From the IMG/VR virus record IMGVR_UViG_3300042898_001439, positions 14,726 to 78,725 of that record: 64,000 nt of DNA. The stretch is one strand, 5' to 3'. The notes beneath the pieces were generated by a model. It was not told the origin of the DNA, did no database searches, and was given only the letters and a program-made list of their open reading frames with translations. Each line of letters opens with the position of its first letter. The stretch's first letter is position 1. Below are positions 34,786 to 63,600 of the stretch, piece after piece. This stretch comes from a virus. Both the position numbers and the translations under genes were made by a program.

Positions 34786-34805
34786 CTACATTAAAAGATA
34801 CGAAA
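34786..34805 (-). promoter_or_regulatory. Putative phage late promoter motif heading the ejection/RNAP operon
   Basis: TTTCGTATCTTTTAATGTAG. Confidence 0.55.
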
Positions 34806-48759: not shown

Positions 48760-48779
48760 GTACACTATAATTTACATAA
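48760..48779 (-). promoter_or_regulatory. Putative phage late promoter motif
   Basis: TTATGTAAATTATAGTGTAC directly before the IHF-like gene. Confidence 0.5.
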
Positions 48780-48800: not shown

Positions 48801-50000
48801 TTAATCTTTACTAATGTGGCAGATTTCTCCAGCTTTACCATCATATTTTTCATGAATGTCCATGATTGCTGATCTCTTGCTACCAACAAACTTATTATGA
48901 TAGTGCCAATAATCAGTTCTAGAAAGACTCGGCATGATCTTTATAGCAAATCCATGAATCTCATTCTCTGAAACAAAGGAGGTTGTTTTCTTCATGTGAT
49001 AGTGACCTGTGTACAATGTTCTATACTTTGTAACTCCCCAATCTTGTGGAAACTCAAACGCATAAACCATAGGGGCATTCTTAGTATTTACATCCCCATG
49101 CTCAAAAGCAAAGAAGTTGTCACCCCAGATAATTACTTTTCTTTCAGAATACTCAACATTAAAAGTGATGGTAGGCAAATCAATAGCTTTAGAAAGAGCA
49201 TGCGCTAAATGGTAAGAGCTTAGTCTATCATGATTACCCGGAACATATACAACTTCAAGATCACTAGTAATAGTTGATAGCTGATAGATTGCCCAAAACA
49301 ATGCCTCAAAAGCTTCACTATATGCCTTTACAGGCGTCATCCCATTATCTACTGGTGTACCGCTAGTAGTTGTACCAGAAAACGTGTCAGCGTTAAGCAA
49401 ATCACCACCAATAACGTAAATTAGTTTGTCAAGCATGTGCATCTTACCAACACGAGTAGTCACGTCAATAATCGCACGTTTAAAATCTAAGACAACCAGT
49501 TCATTTCCTTCTTTACCAAAGTGAATATCTTGCACACTGAATACTCCACAGTAGTTACTTGTAGCAACCGGATTGTCTGGAAAGTTTACAATATGAACAT
49601 CTACTTTCTTAGGTGAAAAGTTCTTTAAAACCTCTGCAAGAAGATCCTGTTCTGTTTGCTTTATTGCAGTAACAAGAGCAGAAACAATCCAGTGATCCTT
49701 TTTTTGTTTGTTCCAATATTGAGAAAGCTTCCACTTAGTGGTATCAATGTTCAATAAAGCAATAATCTCCTCTGGAGTTTTTGGTTCAATGGTAGCAATT
49801 GCTTCCAACTGTTTTGTGTTAGTGTCAAGATTCTCTCTTACTGAAACAATACCTTCCACAAAGGGGTCAGCATATCCTTCTATAAGTTGATTCTTTAATA
49901 CCAGATAGTCTTCAACATCTATTCCGATTCTCTCAGCACAGTTTTTTGCACTTTGTTTCCACTTAAGGGACTGTCGTACTAGATCAATAAGTGAACTCAT
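48801..50000 (-). CDS. Calcineurin-like metallophosphoesterase with N-terminal extension
   Basis: DIHFG, GGDLLN, GNHD, HGD, GHYH. Confidence 0.88.
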   Translation of the reverse strand: MSSLIDLVRQSLKWKQSAKNCAERIGIDVEDYLVLKNQLIEGYADPFVEGIVSVRENLDTNTKQLEAIATIEPKTPEEIIALLNIDTTKWKLSQYWNKQKKDHWIVSALVTAIKQTEQDLLAEVLKNFSPKKVDVHIVNFPDNPVATSNYCGVFSVQDIHFGKEGNELVVLDFKRAIIDVTTRVGKMHMLDKLIYVIGGDLLNADTFSGTTTSGTPVDNGMTPVKAYSEAFEALFWAIYQLSTITSDLEVVYVPGNHDRLSSYHLAHALSKAIDLPTITFNVEYSERKVIIWGDNFFAFEHGDVNTKNAPMVYAFEFPQDWGVTKYRTLYTGHYHMKKTTSFVSENEIHGFAIKIMPSLSRTDYWHYHNKFVGSKRSAIMDIHEKYDGKAGEICHISKD

Positions 50001-50062: not shown

Positions 50063-50095
50063 AAAACAGAAAACCCCAGGTTTCCCCGGGGTTCT
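50063..50095 (-). terminator. Intrinsic terminator after the FN3 cluster
   Basis: AACCCCGGG-GAAA-CCTGGGGTT then TTCTGTTTT. Confidence 0.8.
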
Positions 50096-50140
50096 CCTTA
50101 TTGCCAGCAACGTAAAACCAACAAACCGCGTGACAATATA

Positions 50141-50662
50141 TTATACCGTTGCAGGAGTCATAACCTTGAAAATCAAGGAATTACAAGCAGTGGCTCCTGA
50201 AACATCTTTATTGATAACTCTAAAATGATATGCAGTATTTGGAACCAAGTTGATAAACTTGGTCTTAACTACAGTAAGATCAACACCGTTAGGTTGAGTC
50301 CATGTAGGTGATGAGGCAAGCTTAATTTGAGGAGTATACTTATTACCTGTATTACCAGGATTAACCCACTCAAATTCAATCTCTGTATCCTTTATAGTCA
50401 AAACTGCAACATCAATAACTGACATTACAGGGTTTGTCGGTTGAACACATGTAGGGTACAATTCATAAAGAACCATGCGTCTAACAATAGTGCTAAGACG
50501 TTCACCAACTTTTACAGGAATATCTACAATCTCTAAGCCTTTATACTTAGAGCAATCCATAGAAAGAACCTCATCACAAGGTTCTCCCCCAATACAGTCA
50601 TTGTAAGCACCTGGCAGATTTAGTGCCTGGTCGTTACAATCATTACATCCTTTACAAGCCAT
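50141..50662 (-). CDS. Cys-rich anchor plus complete FN3 domain (virion fibre/decoration)
   Basis: CDEVLSMDC..Y.G segment like the 407-aa protein; FN3 signature EFEW...NLVPNTAYHFRV. Confidence 0.7.
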   Translation of the reverse strand: MACKGCNDCNDQALNLPGAYNDCIGGEPCDEVLSMDCSKYKGLEIVDIPVKVGERLSTIVRRMVLYELYPTCVQPTNPVMSVIDVAVLTIKDTEIEFEWVNPGNTGNKYTPQIKLASSPTWTQPNGVDLTVVKTKFINLVPNTAYHFRVINKDVSGATACNSLIFKVMTPATV

Positions 50663-50682
50663 ACTAGTAAATATTAATTAGG

Positions 50683-51492
50683 TTATAGCGGGTTAGCCGT
50701 AAAATTATATGTAATTGTGATATTACTACTTCCCATAGTAAAGGTTTCAGAATCCGTAGCCGGAGACAAATTACTTGTTCTGTTAATGCTAGGAACAGTT
50801 TGACCTACTACACCAGCAACAAAAGCTGTTGAACCATATTCTGCACAACCAGATCCGGCTACAAAAAGGGCTTGACCTGAATAAGTTACAGTATCACCAA
50901 CAGCCACAGTAATTATATCCTGTGAGTCGTTTCCGGTACCTAAAGCAGAGTAAGAAGAAATAGTAGTACCGTTTACAGAAATAGTTCCTGTACCTCTAGA
51001 ACAAGGAACACTATTGTAATTAATGGTAATTGTTCTTGTTTCAGAGCTACAAGGTATTGCTGAAGCAGTCCAATAAACTAAACCACTTGCCTCTTCAGGT
51101 GAAGGAGAAACACAAGGAGTTTGTGCAACTTGAATAACACCCGTTTGTGATGCAGCATCCCCAGACTCTACAGGTACAGTTCTAGAACAAACAAAAAATG
51201 TCATATATGGACTTATGTCAGTTTGTTGTGAAATCCCCGTTATACAATCGGTAAACGTTAAAATACCATCATCTGCTCCACTATTGTTAATCTCATATCT
51301 ATTACAGGGAACACCCTCAACACAAATAGCTTCTACGGTACCTTCATAAGAAGAGCCGCAGGGAACTGTTATGGTTTTAGGTGACGTTGTAGTAAAAGTA
51401 CTGGTGTAGGCAGTTGTACCAACTACACGATAATTAATTCTGTACTTTACAGCGTTTACCGAGGTATTAAAAGCTATACTTAATGTTGCCAT
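50683..51492 (-). CDS. FN3-like/Ig-like beta protein (269 aa)
   Basis: MATLSIAF...KYRINYR...SYEGTVEAIC, followed by further Cys-containing beta domains. Confidence 0.65.
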   Translation of the reverse strand: MATLSIAFNTSVNAVKYRINYRVVGTTAYTSTFTTTSPKTITVPCGSSYEGTVEAICVEGVPCNRYEINNSGADDGILTFTDCITGISQQTDISPYMTFFVCSRTVPVESGDAASQTGVIQVAQTPCVSPSPEEASGLVYWTASAIPCSSETRTITINYNSVPCSRGTGTISVNGTTISSYSALGTGNDSQDIITVAVGDTVTYSGQALFVAGSGCAEYGSTAFVAGVVGQTVPSINRTSNLSPATDSETFTMGSSNITITYNFTANPL

Positions 51493-51495
51493 CTC

Positions 51496-52719
51496 TTAAG
51501 ATATTGTTGCAGTTATACCTGTTGGAAGAGCACATGCACCAGCAGGGTTTTCAACAGTCACAGTTTTAGACTTCTCACAAGTAATGTTACCATCTGTTAC
51601 ACAGAAAGTAACTGTTACAGTGTAGTCCACGTAAACGTTCAAGCCAGAAGAAGCAAGGCTAATCTGTGCAGTACCGGTACCAGCAAGAGCATCAAGAACT
51701 TGAACCCTTGTACTATAAGTACCACCCATACCATCTGTAATGGTTACAAGTGCACCACTAGCATTACACTCATCAAATCCAACAGGAGCAGAGCTTCCAT
51801 TAAAGTTGAGAGTAAGGGTGCTTACATTAAGAGTTCCTACAAAATTGAAAAGAACATCATCACAAGTAGTATTGCAGCAGGTAGTTTGAATTGTCTTAAC
51901 AGCGGCTCTAATATCACAAATAGTCAACCACATGTTTGTCAGTGACTGTGAAAGAGTAGTAGGGTTAGAGTTCCAACCCTCAAGAGTAGACATTGTACCA
52001 GATCCAGACAACCTGTTGTCTACGTTTAGACCAGGACACTGATAAGTAGTAGAAGCAAGAAGCTGAGTTGAGGTTCCTGTTACTGTTCTTAAATTACAAA
52101 ACTGCTCTTCCAAAGCTTCTACAACATCATCAATGTCAGTAAGTACAGCAGGAAGAACACAGTTAGGTGTTACTTTAGGAATTGTAGATCCAGCAGAGGT
52201 AGCGTTTTCAAGAGTGGTAATTCTAGTATTATGACTAACCAACGTTGAGTTGATAGTAGTAATATTTGATAGAAGCGTACAAACTCTAGCAGCTACAAGC
52301 TCAGCGTAATCGTCAATAGGAAGTACGGTAACCAAATCATTCTGCTGGTTGGTGTACTGTAAGCAAACCGGAAGAGTGGCTGTAATAGTAGATGAAGATC
52401 CTCCAGATCCACCACCACCTTCAAGGGCAGTACATCTACCACCTAAAGAGCAGATCTCATCAATAATGAGTTGCTGCAATTCAGAAAAATCAGCAGGAAC
52501 GTCTTGAGAATTAAGATTCAAGCAAGACAGATCAAGATTAGTAAGACTTGTCTGATCAAGAACTGTACATAGTTCAGTGGCAAGTTTTGCTACCACATCG
52601 GATATAGTATCCCCAGTGCAAATATTTATGCAGGGAATATCCGGACCTTGCCAAACGACACAGTTTGAAGAGATCGGATTACAGCCGTTGGTAATTGTAT
52701 TTGACGATACTGGAATCAT
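51496..52719 (-). CDS. Cys-rich coiled-coil fibre protein (407 aa)
   Basis: CNPISSNCVVWQGPDIPC, repeated helix-Cys units, heptads (HNTRITTLEN), C-terminal beta domain ending CALPTGITATIS. Confidence 0.7.
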   Translation of the reverse strand: MIPVSSNTITNGCNPISSNCVVWQGPDIPCINICTGDTISDVVAKLATELCTVLDQTSLTNLDLSCLNLNSQDVPADFSELQQLIIDEICSLGGRCTALEGGGGSGGSSSTITATLPVCLQYTNQQNDLVTVLPIDDYAELVAARVCTLLSNITTINSTLVSHNTRITTLENATSAGSTIPKVTPNCVLPAVLTDIDDVVEALEEQFCNLRTVTGTSTQLLASTTYQCPGLNVDNRLSGSGTMSTLEGWNSNPTTLSQSLTNMWLTICDIRAAVKTIQTTCCNTTCDDVLFNFVGTLNVSTLTLNFNGSSAPVGFDECNASGALVTITDGMGGTYSTRVQVLDALAGTGTAQISLASSGLNVYVDYTVTVTFCVTDGNITCEKSKTVTVENPAGACALPTGITATIS

Positions 52720-52765
52720 TTGACAAGAAAATAAGTTATGAGTGGCTCCAGCAGAGTATTATACT

Positions 52766-52785
52766 CTACACTAAAATATACGAAA
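52766..52785 (-). promoter_or_regulatory. Putative phage late promoter motif
   Basis: TTTCGTATATTTTAGTGTAG, flanked by short inverted repeats GAAATACT/AGTATTTC and AGAGTA/TACTCT. Confidence 0.55.
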
Positions 52786-52812
52786 TACTTTCCAGTATTT
52801 CAAATGTTAGTC

Positions 52813-53820
52813 TCAGAGATTAAAGAATTTAAAATTTGCATTAGGCTGATCATTAAAATTATTAATATGAGAATCAATAATACTATATACAGCATAATTA
52901 TTATTAATAACAAAGGAAACATAGCTTAAATTAAATCCAAGCATTGTCTGCCCACCTGCAGTAATATCAAGATTACTATTCCTTTGTGCTTGATAGATAT
53001 ATATATGACACTTATAATCAGACATTGAAACTGCAACATAAAGATTTGTTGAGTTTAGTGCATTTAAATCTGCAGTCTGATCAGTAGTAGTACCAAAAAT
53101 ATATTTTCCTAATCTAAGCTGAGTATGATTTTTAAGAGTATAAGTTCCAGAACTAAGAACGACTTGGTTAAATATATTACCTGAACCATTACCAAAATGT
53201 GCAGCAACATTATCTATTATTGAATTACCAAATCTAATTTTTCTAGTTACATTACCTCTATTATTATACTGTATACCACCAAGCCCAGAAGGACTTGCTG
53301 GTAAATATTGAGCAATATTACCTTGGTTACTTAAATAAGAAACATCACCATATTGAGCAAAAACACCAACAGGTTGGACCGTTTCACCACACTTATGACA
53401 AACTACCCTAATCTTTCCAGCAGGTGATGTTACAGTTTTAAGTGCAGTTAAACCGCGTATATCAGCATGATGATCATAATAGTTAAAACTTGTTATAAGC
53501 CCAGCATTTGTACTCCATAACCCGAAAACAGTTTCATCTGGATAAGGGTGAGTAGGTGTTGCACAATTATTACTATACGCAAATTTTATTGCACTGGGCG
53601 TTGGAGCACTTTCGGCATCACAATATGTTAATACTCTATAATAATATAATGTTTGCGGATTATCAACAACTGTAGTATCATCATATGAATTTACTGTTGG
53701 CCCTAAACCTGAAACTAAAGTTGTCCAAGGTCCTGTTGAAACTAACGCTCTTTCAACTGATTGAGTCAGAGCATTAGGACTTGGTGTCCATTGAATAGTT
53801 ATTTTAGATGATATTGACAT
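52813..53820 (-). CDS. FN3 domain plus unique C-terminal domain (335 aa)
   Basis: ITIQWTP...SYDDTT...YYYRVLTYC. Confidence 0.7.
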   Translation of the reverse strand: MSISSKITIQWTPSPNALTQSVERALVSTGPWTTLVSGLGPTVNSYDDTTVVDNPQTLYYYRVLTYCDAESAPTPSAIKFAYSNNCATPTHPYPDETVFGLWSTNAGLITSFNYYDHHADIRGLTALKTVTSPAGKIRVVCHKCGETVQPVGVFAQYGDVSYLSNQGNIAQYLPASPSGLGGIQYNNRGNVTRKIRFGNSIIDNVAAHFGNGSGNIFNQVVLSSGTYTLKNHTQLRLGKYIFGTTTDQTADLNALNSTNLYVAVSMSDYKCHIYIYQAQRNSNLDITAGGQTMLGFNLSYVSFVINNNYAVYSIIDSHINNFNDQPNANFKFFNL

Positions 53821-53829
53821 ATTAATTTA

Positions 53830-54141
53830 CTATGTTAGAGGATAATTAAAGTCAACTGTAAACGAACTTGTTGCAGATACTCCAGAAGCAGGTGCACAAG
53901 GAGCCGGAGTTGTAACAGTTGCAACATTACTAGGAGTTGGTCCTCCAATAGTACAAATAGAATCTATTCTATAATAGTACGTAGTATTATCCAATACGGT
54001 AGTATCAGAATAAGTATTTGCAGTAGGTGATAAACCTGAAGCTAATAAAGACAAAGAGCCAGAAGTAATTCCTCTATATACTCTTTGCTCTATAACGTTA
54101 GCTCCTGTAGGCGCTGCCCAAGTAAGGTTTATAGTTGCCAT
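53830..54141 (-). CDS. Single FN3 domain protein (103 aa)
   Basis: INLTW...RVYR...TYSDTT...TTYYYRIDSIC. Confidence 0.8.
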   Translation of the reverse strand: MATINLTWAAPTGANVIEQRVYRGITSGSLSLLASGLSPTANTYSDTTVLDNTTYYYRIDSICTIGGPTPSNVATVTTPAPCAPASGVSATSSFTVDFNYPLT

Positions 54142-54147
54142 AATTTA

Positions 54148-54717
54148 TTACGCTACTACTGCAGTAAGATTAAGAGGTGCACCACACGCGGGAGCAGTTC
54201 CAACTGAACCATTGTAAGAACAAAACTTAATAAACGTACCATCCGTAAGCCCAATCTTTACAACGTATGATGTAGAGTATGTTAAAGAAGTAAACGTGTA
54301 AGTTCCCGCACCTTGACCTGAGCCAGAAATATCAAACGGTCCTTGTACACTAGTAGTACCGTTTGAGGCAAAAAGTTCAATTGAATCATACGAAACATCT
54401 CCACTAAGAGTGGGGTAGCTTACCAACAAAGTATTTGCAGCACCCGTCTGTGGGTTAGTAACGGTTACAGTCGGACATATAATCTTACTTGCTTGTGTAA
54501 CACCAGAGCTTGTAGGTCCACCAACTGAACACACATTAAGAATCCTGTAGTCGTATAAAACGTTATCAGCCGCTGTAGTATCAACGTAAGTAGCAATACT
54601 AGGCCCAACTGTAGCAATAGTAACCCAGGTCGGGCTACTTGCTAGTTTTCTTTGAACCTGTTGTCCGGTACTAGTGGCATTATTGGTTGGTGTCCAAGTA
54701 AGTGTAACTGTTGCCAT
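54148..54717 (-). CDS. Tandem FN3 domain protein (189 aa)
   Basis: VTLTW...TYVDTT...YDYRILNVC; second domain YTFTSLTYSTSYVVKI; ends CGAPLNLTAVVA. Confidence 0.8.
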   Translation of the reverse strand: MATVTLTWTPTNNATSTGQQVQRKLASSPTWVTIATVGPSIATYVDTTAADNVLYDYRILNVCSVGGPTSSGVTQASKIICPTVTVTNPQTGAANTLLVSYPTLSGDVSYDSIELFASNGTTSVQGPFDISGSGQGAGTYTFTSLTYSTSYVVKIGLTDGTFIKFCSYNGSVGTAPACGAPLNLTAVVA

Positions 54718-54739: not shown

Positions 54740-54759
54740 GTACATTATAATATACTAAA
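54740..54759 (-). promoter_or_regulatory. Putative phage late promoter motif heading the FN3 cluster
   Basis: TTTAGTATATTATAATGTAC, just downstream of a terminator. Confidence 0.55.
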
Positions 54760-54767
54760 TATTCTAC

Positions 54768-54795
54768 AAAAGAAAAAGCCCCATCTCTGGAGCTC
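54768..54795 (-). terminator. Intrinsic terminator
   Basis: AGCTCCA-GAGA-TGGGGCT then TTTTCTTTT. Confidence 0.8.
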
Positions 54796-60620: not shown

Positions 60621-63600
60621 TAATTATTTCTTTAAGTTCATTAATTTGCTTTTGTTGTTCTTTAATAGCTTCAATTAAAAGAGCTGTAATGTTTCCATAT
60701 GAAACAGCATACATACCATTCTCATCTTGACTAACAACTTCTGGAACTACTTCAAGAATCTCTTGTGCAATAACACCAATCTTAGTAGACTTATCTTCAA
60801 TATCTGTACGGTTATATGACACTCCACGAAGTTTGAGCGTCTTATCAAGAGCTCCCTCTAAAGTTTCTACATTTTCTTTTACTCTTCCATCAGAAAATGC
60901 TGTAATATCACCAGTTGCAGTAACCGCGGCGTCAATATAACATACACTATTATATACGTCTACTACACTTCTCCATCCACCCCAGCCACCATTCCAACCA
61001 GAACGGTAGTACATTTTTCTGTCCTTACCGTTACTATTTACAGAATTTTCAGTTACATAAATCTGATAGTGATCTTCTCCAGAATTATAATAACTCATCA
61101 TAGAGCCATAATTATATGCGGTATCTGGTTTGTTAGTTCCTGTAGCATTATGTGCAGATGCAACAATAAATCTATTATTCAAATAATAGTCGTTCCAGTT
61201 ATTCCCATAAATAACACCGTAACGCTCAAGTCTATTTGCAGTAGTAGCAAAAGCTACAGACTGAGAACCAATGGTCGTGCTATCAATAACAGTGGCGTTG
61301 GTTCCGCCACCATAAGCGTTTTTAGAACAATATAATGTACCACCTTCCCAATAGAATTGCCATCCGTAGGAGTTGTTGTGAAATCCAGTTGTATTACTAC
61401 TTACATTAACCATAAGGCTAACATTTCCGTTGCTTCCTGAATCAAACTCTAATCCCCTCCAACTATTGCGAGAACCTGTTACTAGCCAAGAACCATAACT
61501 TCCATCATTTGGTCTTAAGTGAGCATTATTAGTCGGTGAATACAGACCGTAAATACCATTAAGCTGAATCCAGTTTTCTGGGATAAGGTATCCATTAGCA
61601 TTCCTTGTTGGGATTGTATTGGCAGTGCCAGCAACCGAGGCGTGGAAGCCATCTACGGTATCAGCGTTAACGGCACTGGCTACTGACTGACTTCCAATAT
61701 TTGCACTTGAAATAGCATATACCCAAGATTGGAATGTACCAGAACCTTGATAACTTCTAAACCATAATAAGTTATCATAATAACTCATTGCAACTTGGAA
61801 TCCGTGATAATTGCCTTGGTTACTGTGTCTAACATTTATAGAGTTATACCAAGTTGCTGAACCTGCAGGCCAGTTTGATCCACCACCACCATTTTCGTAA
61901 AACCCACTATTAACTTGTGAGTTAGCATCTGAATGACCTCCGATTAAAGAAGCATTTATCATCCAACTGGGTTTTGACGTTACATTGTCCCATGCCACGG
62001 AACCAGCACTACCTGTGATACTTCCTGATGATGTTATATATCCCGAGTTGTTAGTAAACTGAGAAATATTCATTGAAGTTAATGCTCCGGCCGTTGTAGC
62101 CGTTGCAGCATTACCACTAATGTTAATTTGATCTCCAGTGTTAGTTCCACTTAAATTACTTCCAGTTACAGTTCCTGTAACATATAAATTATTTAATACT
62201 CTAACGTGGTTATCTCCATTACCCACTGAAAAAATTTCAGTAGCCCAATTTGAGTCATTATAAAAACGAGTGCCGTTATAACCAGAGTTCGCTCCAATCT
62301 TTATACCTGTATGATACCCAATGCATAAATCTGGATAAGGATGAGTCCAACTGCCTCCTTGCTGGTAAATGGCATAACTATCTGGCATAGCCCCATTGCC
62401 AGAATCACCTCCTACACCAGTAAATGTCAAAATCTTAAATCTTGTAGAAGTATCTGCTGCAAGATTGCTTGCCGTTGTTGCAGTAGCAGCGTTTCCACTA
62501 ATGTTAGTTTGGTCACCTGTATTTGTACCACTAGATGATCCACTAAAGTTTGATGCTGTAAATGTTCCAGCAATCTGCATATTACCACTAGTGGCGTTTA
62601 ACGCTGCAACTGGAGTAACACCATTATTTCCCCAAGTGAATCCTCTACCTGTGCTCCCCGGGTCCATTTGAGTCTTTATGGAGTAGTCAATAACTGGTCC
62701 GTATTGATACAATCCTCCAACTCCCATTGAGATTTTATATTCGTCGCTACCTCCCCAGAATCTTAAACCATTACCTCCTCCTGCAGTTACATTGTAAAAT
62801 GGATTTACATTTCCGGCATTTGGTGCAGAACCTGCTGTGGTTGCATATGTTGCAGTTGCCGCATTTCCCGTTGTATTTTGGTTCCATGTCGGAATATTAC
62901 CTGAGTGGTAAACAGTGTATTCTGTTGTACCAGCACCAACTCTAACAACTAAACCATTTGTGTTAACTGGATTCAATACAATTATGTCATCCGCATCATT
63001 TGATACACCAATAACTAATCTATTTGCTTCACCTGATGAACCACCGATACCATATGCGTGGTATTGAATAAATCCAAAATCAGATGGATGGTTAATGTTT
63101 GTACCATCTTTTTCAGATTCAAAGAAAATACCACTTACACCAGTACTATTACCTTTTAGTACAATGTTATCCGCACCCGTTACATAATTTGATTCCGTTG
63201 TATATGTACCATATGAAAGTGAACCACTAACGGTTAATCCGCCAAGTGTAATGTTATTTGTTGTTGATGCTCCTCTTGTTGTTACACTGTTTAATGTATC
63301 AGTTTCAGTGTAACCAGTAATGTATCCCGCAGAAGCGTGGTTACCCCACCCATAAGCTGTGTTCCAGTTACTTATGTTGGTTGAACTAAAGTCTCTTGAG
63401 TCCCATATTTGATACTTATTACCAGCACCGTCAGACCAACCACCAACGTGTAATCTATTAGTTACATCATCCAGACCAAAGTGAACGGCATAATCACTTC
63501 CAATATGGAATGACATAAATGCATCATTACCTGCTTCAGACCTAACAGATAAAGCGTGGTTTCCAGCCTCTTGGCTAATATCTCCTACAGAACCAAATCT

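What the first reader, a model, noticed from the sequence alone, without database searches (positions are those of the whole stretch)
50141..54717. FN3 genes split between strand A and strand B: a pilus-like, donor-strand-complemented phage fibre kit
Seen: four proteins begin directly at the FN3 B strand (MATVTLTW, MATINLTW, KITIQW, MATLSIAF) and have a Cys ending the F strand (LNVC, DSIC, LTYC, EAIC). Three proteins end with an orphan A-strand motif led by Cys (CGAPLNLTAVVA stop, CAPASGVSATS, CALPTGITATIS stop). Established: Bacteroidota FN3 repeats run C-x-x-P-x-x-L-x-[AV]...W...Y...C within one chain, and chaperone-usher pili polymerise by donating a strand. Inference: the 407-aa coiled-coil protein (donor only) is the base, the 189- and 103-aa proteins (acceptor plus donor) are extenders able to polymerise, and the 335- and 269-aa proteins (acceptor plus unique domain) are alternative tips, each joint locked by an inter-subunit disulfide. 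The 173-aa protein is an unsplit short version with the same Cys-rich anchor. This would give virion fibres of variable length and tip.
Basis: partly seen in the sequence, partly recalled or inferred. Interest (0 to 1): 0.85.

Follow-up and report, generated by a model that had tools for sequence, protein, structure and literature searches.

The report
Split FN3 joints linking fibre proteins
In this uncultured crAss-like phage, neighbouring fibre genes are cut inside a fibronectin-type domain, so one protein ends with the domain's first strand and the next begins with its second; this is most likely a plug-and-socket joint that links separate proteins and lets tips be swapped, but binding has not been shown.

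Summary
Six minus-strand genes (54717-50141) form one module between two terminators. Four proteins (189, 103, 335, 269 aa) start at FN3 strand B. The 189- and 407-aa proteins stop right after a Cys-led orphan strand A. The 103-aa protein has the same strand, followed by 11 more residues. Tandem stop codons, and spacers that change frame in relatives, rule out read-through.

The 407-aa protein has 206 relatives in IMG/VR. Among 53 non-redundant loci, 23 have both an orphan donor tail and a B-strand-first gene, 29 have neither, and 1 has an acceptor only. The two traits change together about 10 times on the tree. Donor tails sit on four different carrier proteins. An AF2 model of the 189-aa protein alone has a six-stranded first domain and an unpaired tail. 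In a read-through fusion with the 103-aa protein, the tail becomes strand A of the next domain.

Best reading (about 0.6): each split FN3 is rebuilt between two proteins, giving defined base-extender-tip chains on the tail. An inter-subunit disulfide is possible. Open-ended, pilus-like polymerisation is untested. The one complex prediction gave no verdict.

The same scan noted this pattern earlier on another genome (e1-6009717). I found no published report. The phage's cultured relatives lack the split.

The parts
54776..54795 (-). terminator-like hairpin with a T run, closing the upstream unit; upper border of the FN3 module
   Evidence: 8 pairs, 4 G-C, T-rich tail
54741..54755 (-). copy of the motif GTATATTnTAnTGTA, a candidate phage promoter in front of the 189-aa gene
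   Evidence: 5 copies on the minus strand against 0.41 expected, each just upstream of a gene start
54148..54717 (-). 189-aa extender: FN3 that starts at strand B (acceptor), a complete second FN3, and a C-terminal orphan strand A (donor)
   Evidence: four invariant Cys (C63, C81, C166, C178)
54151..54186 (-). donor tail of the 189-aa protein (residues 178-189, CGAPLNLTAVVA)
   Evidence: not a strand in the model of the protein alone; strand E182-189, pLDDT about 90, in the read-through fusion
54142..54150 (-). junction TAA TAA ATT between the 189-aa and 103-aa genes, in frame, at the place of the FN3 A-B turn
53830..54141 (-). 103-aa protein: acceptor FN3 followed by a tail made of strand A and a B-like segment
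53833..53898 (-). tail of the 103-aa protein (residues 82-103: C-A-P-A-S-G-V-S-A-T-S then SFTVDFNYPLT)
   Evidence: pLDDT below 50 for residues 279-294 of the fusion model; the motif DFNYP is shared with the 230-aa protein of L002
52813..53820 (-). 335-aa tip candidate: N-terminal acceptor FN3 (..KITIQW) and a unique C-terminal part with no family match
52767..52781 (-). second exact copy of the motif GTATATTnTAnTGTA, in front of the 407-aa gene
51496..52719 (-). 407-aa base protein (called H here): conserved Cys-rich N-terminal part, a short heptad segment, an Ig-like domain, and a donor tail
   Evidence: 206 relatives; it ends where longer homologs go on into a cis FN3
51499..51534 (-). donor tail of the 407-aa protein (residues 396-407, CALPTGITATIS)
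   Evidence: it aligns with strand A of the cis FN3 in the ~490-aa homologs
51493..51498 (-). junction TAA GAG between the 407-aa and 269-aa genes, in frame
   Evidence: conserved in L001 and L002
50683..51492 (-). 269-aa tip candidate: acceptor domain (residues 1-63, MATLSIAF.., invariant C57) and a swappable C-terminal part
50141..50662 (-). 173-aa Cys-rich protein with one complete FN3 (strand A in cis); a conserved family that carries a donor tail in some relatives
50068..50097 (-). strong terminator-like hairpin that closes the FN3 module
   Evidence: 13 pairs, 7 G-C

Best explanation
The module encodes parts of a tail fibre or appendage of a crAss-like phage. The parts are joined by rebuilding split FN3 domains between polypeptides.

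Base proteins end in a 12-17-residue amphipathic tail, C-x-x-P-[TS]-x-[VLI]-x-A-x-[LIV].., which is strand A of an FN3 domain. Here the base is the 407-aa protein. In relatives the tail can also sit on the Cys-rich protein or on a protein upstream of H. Partner proteins begin, right after Met-Ala-Thr, with strand B of an FN3 that has no strand A of its own. The tail fills the open edge of that sheet. The orphan Cys before the tail and the orphan Cys after strand F of the partner may then form a disulfide once the particle leaves the reducing cytoplasm.

This would give ordered chains. In this phage the likely chains are 407 -> 269, and 189 -> 103 -> 335. The 189-aa acceptor would be filled either by a further tail of the (probably oligomeric) 407-aa protein or by another 189-aa subunit.

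Tight spacing or coupling of the genes would deliver donor and acceptor together. The conserved joint lets C-terminal tip modules be exchanged by recombination.

Shown: the split anatomy, its conservation, the co-occurrence, and the compatibility of a donor tail with an acceptor domain in a fused model. Inferred: binding in trans, the disulfide, the order of the chain, and the tail location.
For: 1. Anatomy. Six-stranded acceptor domains and unpaired tails are seen in the sequence and in AF2 models.

2. Alignment A2. The 407-aa type stops exactly after the strand A that about 490-aa homologs continue into a full cis FN3. Donor-type homologs add a second Cys-led strand A after strand G. Non-donor homologs stop within 0-3 residues of strand G.

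3. Co-occurrence. Among 53 non-redundant loci, 23 have donor and acceptor, 29 have neither, 1 has an acceptor only and 0 have a donor only (Fisher p 4e-14, not corrected for relatedness). Each trait changes 10 times on the H tree. All 5 independent pairs on well-supported branches go the same way.

4. Donor tails occur on four unrelated carriers: H, an upstream 291-767-aa protein, a 480-560-aa Cys-rich protein, and the extender. In many loci a retained gene lies between the donor and the acceptor gene, so co-variation cannot always come from one deletion of a single contiguous stretch.

5. The tails have beta-strand periodicity. Positions 6, 8, 10 and 12 after the Cys are hydrophobic or small, and 7, 9 and 11 are Ser/Thr. 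The two copies of the 189-aa tail in close relatives differ only at outward-facing positions.

6. In the fusion read through the natural stop codons, tail residues 182-189 become a strand (pLDDT about 90) followed by strand B. This gives a seven-stranded FN3.

7. A cis reference exists. In P0196 the acceptor HMM matches from strand B onward (iE 2.5e-9), and a donor-like C-x-S-P-T-A-L-T-A stretch lies directly upstream in the same chain.

8. All 30 database members of the tip family start at strand B, and their C-terminal parts differ among near-identical N-termini.

9. Cys bookkeeping. The extender has four invariant Cys. Two flank the complete domain 2. The other two are the post-F Cys of the acceptor and the pre-A Cys of the tail.

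10. Disulfide-stabilised tail hubs and fibre docking are known in PhiCrAss001 (PMC10172136).
Against: There is no direct evidence of binding in trans.

AF2 models the acceptor domain with high confidence without strand A, so the domain might be stable alone.

The fused model shows only compatibility, which is expected for any FN3 cut in a loop.

One locus (L057) has an acceptor without a recognisable donor.

In this phage and in its complete relative G001 there are four acceptors but only three donor-like tails. One of those, in the 103-aa protein, carries 11 extra residues that remain unexplained.

The shared ATG-GCA-AC start suggests that many junctions descend from one ancestral junction. 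Repeated placement at the A-B turn is therefore not many independent events.

A profile-profile comparison did not show that the tip acceptor domain and the cis FN3 of long H homologs are homologous.

Donor tails were picked by a motif that requires the Cys, so the constancy of the Cys in tails is partly built in.
Confidence: 0.6

Rival explanations
1. Fission relic or recombination junction. An ancestral multi-FN3 fibre gene was cut once in an A-B turn, and the stop/start cassette then spread by module shuffling. The orphan tail would be a tolerated remnant or a flexible linker, and the proteins would attach to the virion through other surfaces.
For: The ATG-GCA-AC(A/T) start is conserved across many junctions. 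Donor and acceptor are often adjacent, so one event can add or remove both. AF2 folds the acceptor domain confidently without strand A.
Against: The tails are kept, with strand periodicity, across H proteins only 35-45% identical. Tails and acceptor genes co-vary even when a retained gene lies between them and when the tail sits on a different carrier. No locus keeps a tail without an acceptor.
Confidence: 0.2
2. The tail is a docking peptide for something other than the B-strand-first domain, for example the ring or hub proteins, the capsid, or a host surface molecule.
For: In PhiCrAss001 short terminal segments of fibre and hub proteins dock into neighbouring assemblies. The 189-aa acceptor has no dedicated donor.
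Against: The tail has the sequence of an FN3 strand A and aligns with cis A strands. Its presence tracks that of acceptor genes, not of the ring proteins, which are present in all loci.
Confidence: 0.1
3. Self-complementation in cis. The tail of the 189-aa protein folds back onto its own N-terminal FN3, giving a closed monomer and no chain.
For: The geometry allows it, because domain 2 could run antiparallel to domain 1. The protein has exactly one orphan Cys at each end.
Against: The AF2 model of the protein alone leaves residues 172-189 without strand pairing. This cannot apply to donor-only proteins such as the 407-aa one, or to acceptor-only tips.
Confidence: 0.07
4. Read-through, recoding or another genetic code turns the in-frame genes into one long poly-FN3 protein.
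For: Three of the junctions are in frame with only 1-3 codons between the stop and the ATG.
Against: The stops are tandem (TAA TAA, TAG TAA). The other genes of the window are long and open under table 11. In relatives the same junctions have spacers of 1 to about 40 nt in other frames, with several stops.
Confidence: 0.03

Closest known systems
Type V pili of Bacteroidota (FimA, Mfa1; protease-mediated strand exchange; PMC13655056)
   Same: A C-terminal donor strand of one subunit fills a groove left by a missing N-terminal strand in the next subunit's beta-sandwich. The host phylum is probably the same, Bacteroidota.
   Different: Pilins are lipoprotein precursors, and their N-terminal strand is removed by a gingipain. 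Here no signal peptide or cleavage is involved, because the gene itself starts after the missing strand. The fold is FN3, not the pilin fold. The chains look heteromeric and ordered. The only Pfam hit to Fimbrillin_C is below threshold (E 0.064).
Chaperone-usher pili (donor-strand complementation and exchange)
   Same: An incomplete Ig-like subunit is completed by a strand from its neighbour, and an ordered tip-adaptor-rod arrangement is encoded in one operon.
   Different: There the missing strand is the C-terminal strand G and the donor is an N-terminal extension. A periplasmic chaperone and an outer-membrane usher are needed. Here the polarity is reversed. I saw no chaperone-like or usher-like gene next to the module, and I did not run a dedicated search for one.
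PhiCrAss001 tail hub and fibre docking (THA/THB, gp22; PMC10172136)
   Same: It is a crAss-like virion, and its hub genes (THA, THB) lie just upstream of the ring protein 2 gene, about where this module lies. Short terminal segments of one protein are held by a neighbouring assembly, and inter-protein disulfides stabilise the tail.
   Different: No sequence similarity was found between the 407-, 193- or 173-aa proteins and any solved chain of that virion. No split FN3 is described there. The cultured relatives examined (Cellulophaga phi17:2, Flavobacterium FpV4) lack the split genes.
Engineered split-domain tags (SpyTag/SpyCatcher from a split CnaB2 domain; split FN3 fragments) - from my own knowledge, not checked here
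   Same: A beta-sandwich domain is cut so that one strand, carried as a peptide tag, rebuilds the fold on a partner and can be locked covalently.
   Different: Those are man-made and use an isopeptide bond or none. Here the split is natural, is encoded as neighbouring genes, and the proposed lock is a disulfide.
TasA donor-strand exchange fibres of Bacillus subtilis (PMC9674648)
   Same: A terminal strand completes the neighbouring subunit's beta-sandwich to build a fibre.
   Different: TasA forms a homopolymer of one secreted protein with a different fold, in a bacterial matrix rather than a virion.

Membership tests
Fibronectin type III domain (Pfam PF00041) | Sequence match to the family model above the curated cut-off | tested here: not met
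   best fn3 hits score 18.8 bits (173-aa) and 14.5 bits (189-aa, domain 2) against a cut-off of 25. The N-terminal acceptor domains gave no fn3 hit.
Fibronectin type III domain (Pfam PF00041) | Seven-stranded beta-sandwich of FN3 topology | tested here: met
   AF2 model of the 189-aa protein (pLDDT 92) matches tandem FN3 structures in Foldseek (prob 1.0, E 2.8e-6 and below). Domain 2 has 7 strands and domain 1 has 6. With the donor tail in the fusion, the 103-aa domain has 7.
Type V pilins (FimA/Mfa1) | Lipoprotein signal peptide and protease site whose cleavage removes the N-terminal strand | tested here: not met
   The proteins start Met-Ala-Thr followed at once by strand B, with no hydrophobic leader or lipobox.
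Type V pilins (FimA/Mfa1) | C-terminal donor strand that completes the next subunit | tested here: inconclusive
   C-terminal strand-like tails are present and co-vary with acceptor domains. Insertion in trans is not shown.
Type V pilins (FimA/Mfa1) | Fimbrillin fold or family match | tested here: not met
   PF15495 scores only E 0.064 and 14.2 bits against a cut-off of 27. The fold search gives FN3.
Chaperone-usher pili | Missing C-terminal strand G, N-terminal donor extension, dedicated chaperone and usher | tested here: not met
   The missing strand is the N-terminal strand A and the donor is C-terminal. The module holds only the six fibre genes between two terminators.
Crassvirales-type virion (crAss-like phage) | Paralogous tail ring proteins R1 and R2 next to a giant muzzle-type gene | tested here: met
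   PF25702 CrAss_Ring_2 scores 71.3 bits (cut-off 27) on the 223-aa protein and PF24228 CrAss_Ring_1 scores 44.7 bits (cut-off 27) on the 287-aa protein. A 1567-aa ORF follows. The muzzle fold itself was not tested.
PhiCrAss001 tail hub proteins THA/THB | Sequence or fold similarity to gp38/gp39 | tested here: not met
   No PDB chain matched the 407- or 193-aa proteins at E up to 1. Their folds were not modelled. Only the gene position is alike.

The most novel reading that the evidence does not exclude
The extender (189-aa type), which has both a socket and a plug, polymerises head to tail like a pilin. The phage would then build disulfide-locked, bead-chain tail fibres of variable length, capped by alternative tips. 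That would be a virus-encoded, chaperone-free donor-strand polymer.
Probability: 0.15. Interest if true: 0.9.

Novelty: new variant of a known kind. Interest (0 to 1): 0.72.

Why it matters
If the joints work as proposed, a large clade of uncultured, probably Flavobacteriia-infecting crAss-like phages assembles its host-recognition apparatus from separate proteins by rebuilding a split domain. That principle is known from bacterial pili but I found no description of it for virus fibres.

It would explain how tips are exchanged between near-identical phages without disturbing the joint. It would give a sequence rule for predicting which fibre proteins bind which: a tail ending right after strand A pairs with a gene starting at strand B. 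It would also offer a small natural plug-and-socket pair, possibly self-locking by a disulfide, for protein engineering.

The claim can be tested directly with two recombinant proteins.

Tried and rejected
Complex prediction. Residues 278-407 of the 407-aa protein were run with residues 1-130 of the 269-aa protein, each with its own alignment (collected). The result was 'no answer' (ipSAE 0.02, 0.02) and the controls were not run. This is neither support nor evidence against.

Searches of GenBank phages. The module DNA (blastn), the 407-aa protein and the 189-aa protein (tblastn) gave no match. Only ring protein 2 finds cultured relatives, at 24-31% identity (Cellulophaga phi17:2 and phi4:1, Flavobacterium FpV4). 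Their equivalent regions hold Cys-rich fibre genes but no split FN3.

PDB sequence searches. The 407- and 193-aa proteins gave nothing. The 173-aa protein gave only weak FN3 hits.

Pfam and PHROGs. The six proteins gave only sub-threshold fn3 hits and PHROG families of unknown function or tail category.

Profile-profile comparison of the tip family with the H family gave no significant match. Homology between the tip acceptor domain and the cis FN3 of long H homologs is therefore not shown.

Search for fused forms. No longer homolog of the 189-aa protein was found. No H-tip fusion was found among longer matches to the tip profile. Only P0196, a cellular-type protein with cis repeats, matched the acceptor part.

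The ESM Atlas for the 407-aa protein gave only viral hypothetical clusters.

Read-through or recoding was considered first, because three junctions are in frame. It was rejected.

My first donor regular expression picked up strand-G endings of Cys-rich proteins and capsid-like C termini as false positives. The labels used for the counts were curated by eye.

Literature searches for donor-strand or strand complementation in phage fibres, and for FN3 in crAss-like fibres, found no report.


Full report
**What is there.** The window is 64 kb of a 78.7-kb single-contig virus record (G000, CheckV 66% complete). Nearly all genes lie on the minus strand. Pfam places the 223-aa and 287-aa proteins in CrAss_Ring_2 and CrAss_Ring_1, well above the curated cut-offs. 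Upstream lie a fibre gene with an S74 chaperone domain and three LamG-type genes. The record is therefore a crAss-like phage. Its nearest cultured relatives, at 24-31% identity in ring protein 2, infect Cellulophaga and Flavobacterium.

The finding covers six genes between two terminator-like hairpins (54795-54776 and 50097-50068). A motif GTATATTnTAnTGTA stands in front of the 189-aa and 407-aa genes. It has 5 minus-strand copies in the window against 0.41 expected. This suggests two units: 189-103-335 and 407-269-173.

**The observation.** All quoted motifs are present. The 189|103, 103|335 and 407|269 junctions are in frame. Their stop codons (TAA TAA, TAG TAA, TAA) sit where the A-B turn of an FN3 domain would be.

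The AF2 model of the 189-aa protein has mean pLDDT 92 (13-row alignment). It shows a first domain of six strands starting at residue 2, a second domain of seven strands, and no strand in residues 172-189. Foldseek matches it to tandem FN3 structures.

The strand-A motif of the 103-aa protein is followed by 11 further residues containing DFNYP. The 230-aa protein of L002 shares this ending.

**Not read-through.** I first suspected recoding because of the in-frame junctions. Three things rule it out. The stops are tandem. The rest of the window is open under table 11. In relatives the equivalent junctions have spacers from -1 to about 40 nt, in other frames and with several stops.

**Comparative evidence.** The 407-aa protein (called H here) has 206 relatives in IMG/VR, and 80 loci were fetched. 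Alignment A2 is the key result.
- H homologs of about 490 aa continue after the Ig-like domain into a complete FN3 in cis.
- The 407-aa type stops exactly after strand A of that FN3.
- One group of the 490-aa homologs ends within 0-3 residues of strand G.
- Another group adds a further 14-16 residues, C-P-P-P-T-x-V-x-x-x-I.., which is another orphan strand A.

Loci whose H carries such a tail have, two genes downstream, a gene that begins at strand B (MAPVPATITVNFTS.., MATLTINFT..). Loci without a tail lack that gene. An apparent exception, L026, has its tail on the 291-aa protein upstream of H. L057 remains an exception.

After curation, 23 of 53 non-redundant loci have both traits, 29 have neither, 1 has an acceptor only and none has a donor only (Fisher p 4e-14, uncorrected for relatedness). 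On a tree of the N-terminal 300 residues of H, each trait changes 10 times. All 5 independent contrasts on well-supported branches agree (p 0.06, the best possible with 5).

Tails occur on four carriers: H, the upstream protein, long forms of the Cys-rich protein, and the extender. The extender family of 177-194 aa (acceptor FN3, complete FN3, tail) is conserved in at least six lineages.

All 30 database members of the tip family start at strand B. Near-identical N-termini carry different C-terminal parts. For example, this phage's tip is 269 aa, while the tip of L001 is 222 aa even though its H is 96% identical.

**Nature of the tail.** In the tails, positions 6, 8, 10 and 12 after the Cys are hydrophobic or small, and positions 7, 9 and 11 are mostly Ser or Thr. 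That is the pattern of a strand packed on one face. Between this phage and L001 the 189-aa tail differs only at alternate, outward-facing positions.

A cis reference exists. In P0196, a 790-aa protein with a T9SS-type C-terminal domain, an HMM of the tip acceptor domain matches from strand B onward (iE 2.5e-9). A C-x-S-P-T-A-L-T-A stretch lies directly upstream in the same chain.

The nearest relatives of the extender's FN3 are giant multi-FN3 proteins. They hold 2016 cis A-B motifs, of which only 7 are Cys-led. The flanking cysteines are therefore a speciality of this phage family and a few cellular proteins, not a general rule.

**Fold tests.** Reading the natural TAA TAA as two residues gives a 295-aa fusion of the 189- and 103-aa proteins. 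In its AF2 model (pLDDT 87), residues 182-189 form a strand with pLDDT about 90. A five-residue turn and strand B follow, which makes a seven-stranded FN3. The 103-aa protein's own tail has pLDDT below 50. This shows compatibility, not binding in trans. The one complex prediction available returned no verdict and is listed only under things tried.

**Mechanism proposed.** A base protein displays a strand-A tail. A partner that starts at strand B accepts it, and the FN3 is rebuilt across two chains.

The extender has four invariant cysteines. Two flank its complete domain. The other two are the post-F Cys of the open domain and the pre-A Cys of the tail. By analogy each joint would bring one orphan Cys from each side to the same pole of the domain. 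That could allow a disulfide, as is known between tail proteins of PhiCrAss001. This step is inference.

The module sits upstream of the ring protein genes, separated from ring protein 2 by the 399-aa exonuclease-like gene and the 193-aa gene. In PhiCrAss001 the tail hub genes lie just upstream of ring protein 2. A tail location is therefore more likely than the capsid, but no sequence similarity supports it.

In this phage and in its complete relative G001 there are four acceptors and three donor-like tails. Either an oligomeric base serves two kinds of partner, or the extender binds itself, or one socket stays empty. I cannot decide between these.

**Comparison and novelty.** The mechanism resembles type V and chaperone-usher pili and TasA fibres. 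The proteins fail the defining features of those families: no signal peptide, no protease step, a different fold, and a different polarity from chaperone-usher pili. I found no published description of split FN3 joints in phage fibres. The cultured relatives examined lack them.

That note is not independent evidence. I file the finding as a new variant of a known kind of assembly principle, with moderate confidence (0.6) that the joints work in trans.

Noticed in passing
window 34787-34801, 48761-48775, 52767-52781, 54741-54755, 60943-60957 (minus strand): The motif GTATATTnTAnTGTA occurs 5 times against 0.41 expected, always on the coding strand. The four copies I checked against the ORF list (34787, 48761, 52767, 54741) lie 5-50 nt before a gene start; the copy at 60943 falls inside the 1104-aa ORF. 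It is a candidate phage promoter.
   Followed up: partly
window 53833-53865; L002:4030-4719: The tail of the 103-aa protein continues after strand A with SFTVDFNYPLT, and the 230-aa protein of L002 has ..YRTDFNYPV.. at the same place. This conserved second element looks like a strand B, in front of a gene that has its own strand B. It is unexplained.
   Followed up: partly
window 50683-51300 versus L001:7228-7893: The tip protein is 269 aa here and 222 aa in L001, although the neighbouring H proteins are 96% identical. Database relatives with 97-99% identical N-termini carry either C-terminal part. This suggests recent tip-module exchange just after the acceptor domain.
   Followed up: partly
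L048, L071, L054, L018 (genes after the long Cys-rich protein): In four loci a small protein of 93-113 aa follows an enlarged Cys-rich protein and begins with a Cys-containing lead-in. In L048 and L071 this is visibly a Cys-led strand A followed by a whole FN3. That is a different cut, before strand A rather than after it.
   Followed up: no
window 48801-50000: A 399-aa protein matching phrog_704 'DNA repair exonuclease' (E 1.6e-42) sits inside the structural module, between the FN3 genes and the ring proteins. It is conserved at this place in about half of the listed relatives.
   Followed up: no
P0196 (790 aa, from a JGI metagenome): This cellular-type protein has a T9SS C-terminal domain and Cys-flanked FN3 repeats close to the phage tip acceptor domain. 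The phage modules may derive from Bacteroidota surface proteins.
   Followed up: no
window 52782-52801: An AT-rich hairpin GAAATACT-GGAA-AGTATTTC directly follows the 335-aa gene and abuts the promoter-like motif. The terminator scan did not call it because it has few G-C pairs.
   Followed up: no
L082 (Cellulophaga phage phi17:2) 5126-8887: Two virion or 'tail fiber' proteins just upstream of ring protein 2 begin with Cys-rich N termini (MCKKTGC.., MSCKECEE..CGCEE..) like those of the 173-aa family here. This hints that the Cys-rich head is the conserved anchor to the tail.
   Followed up: no
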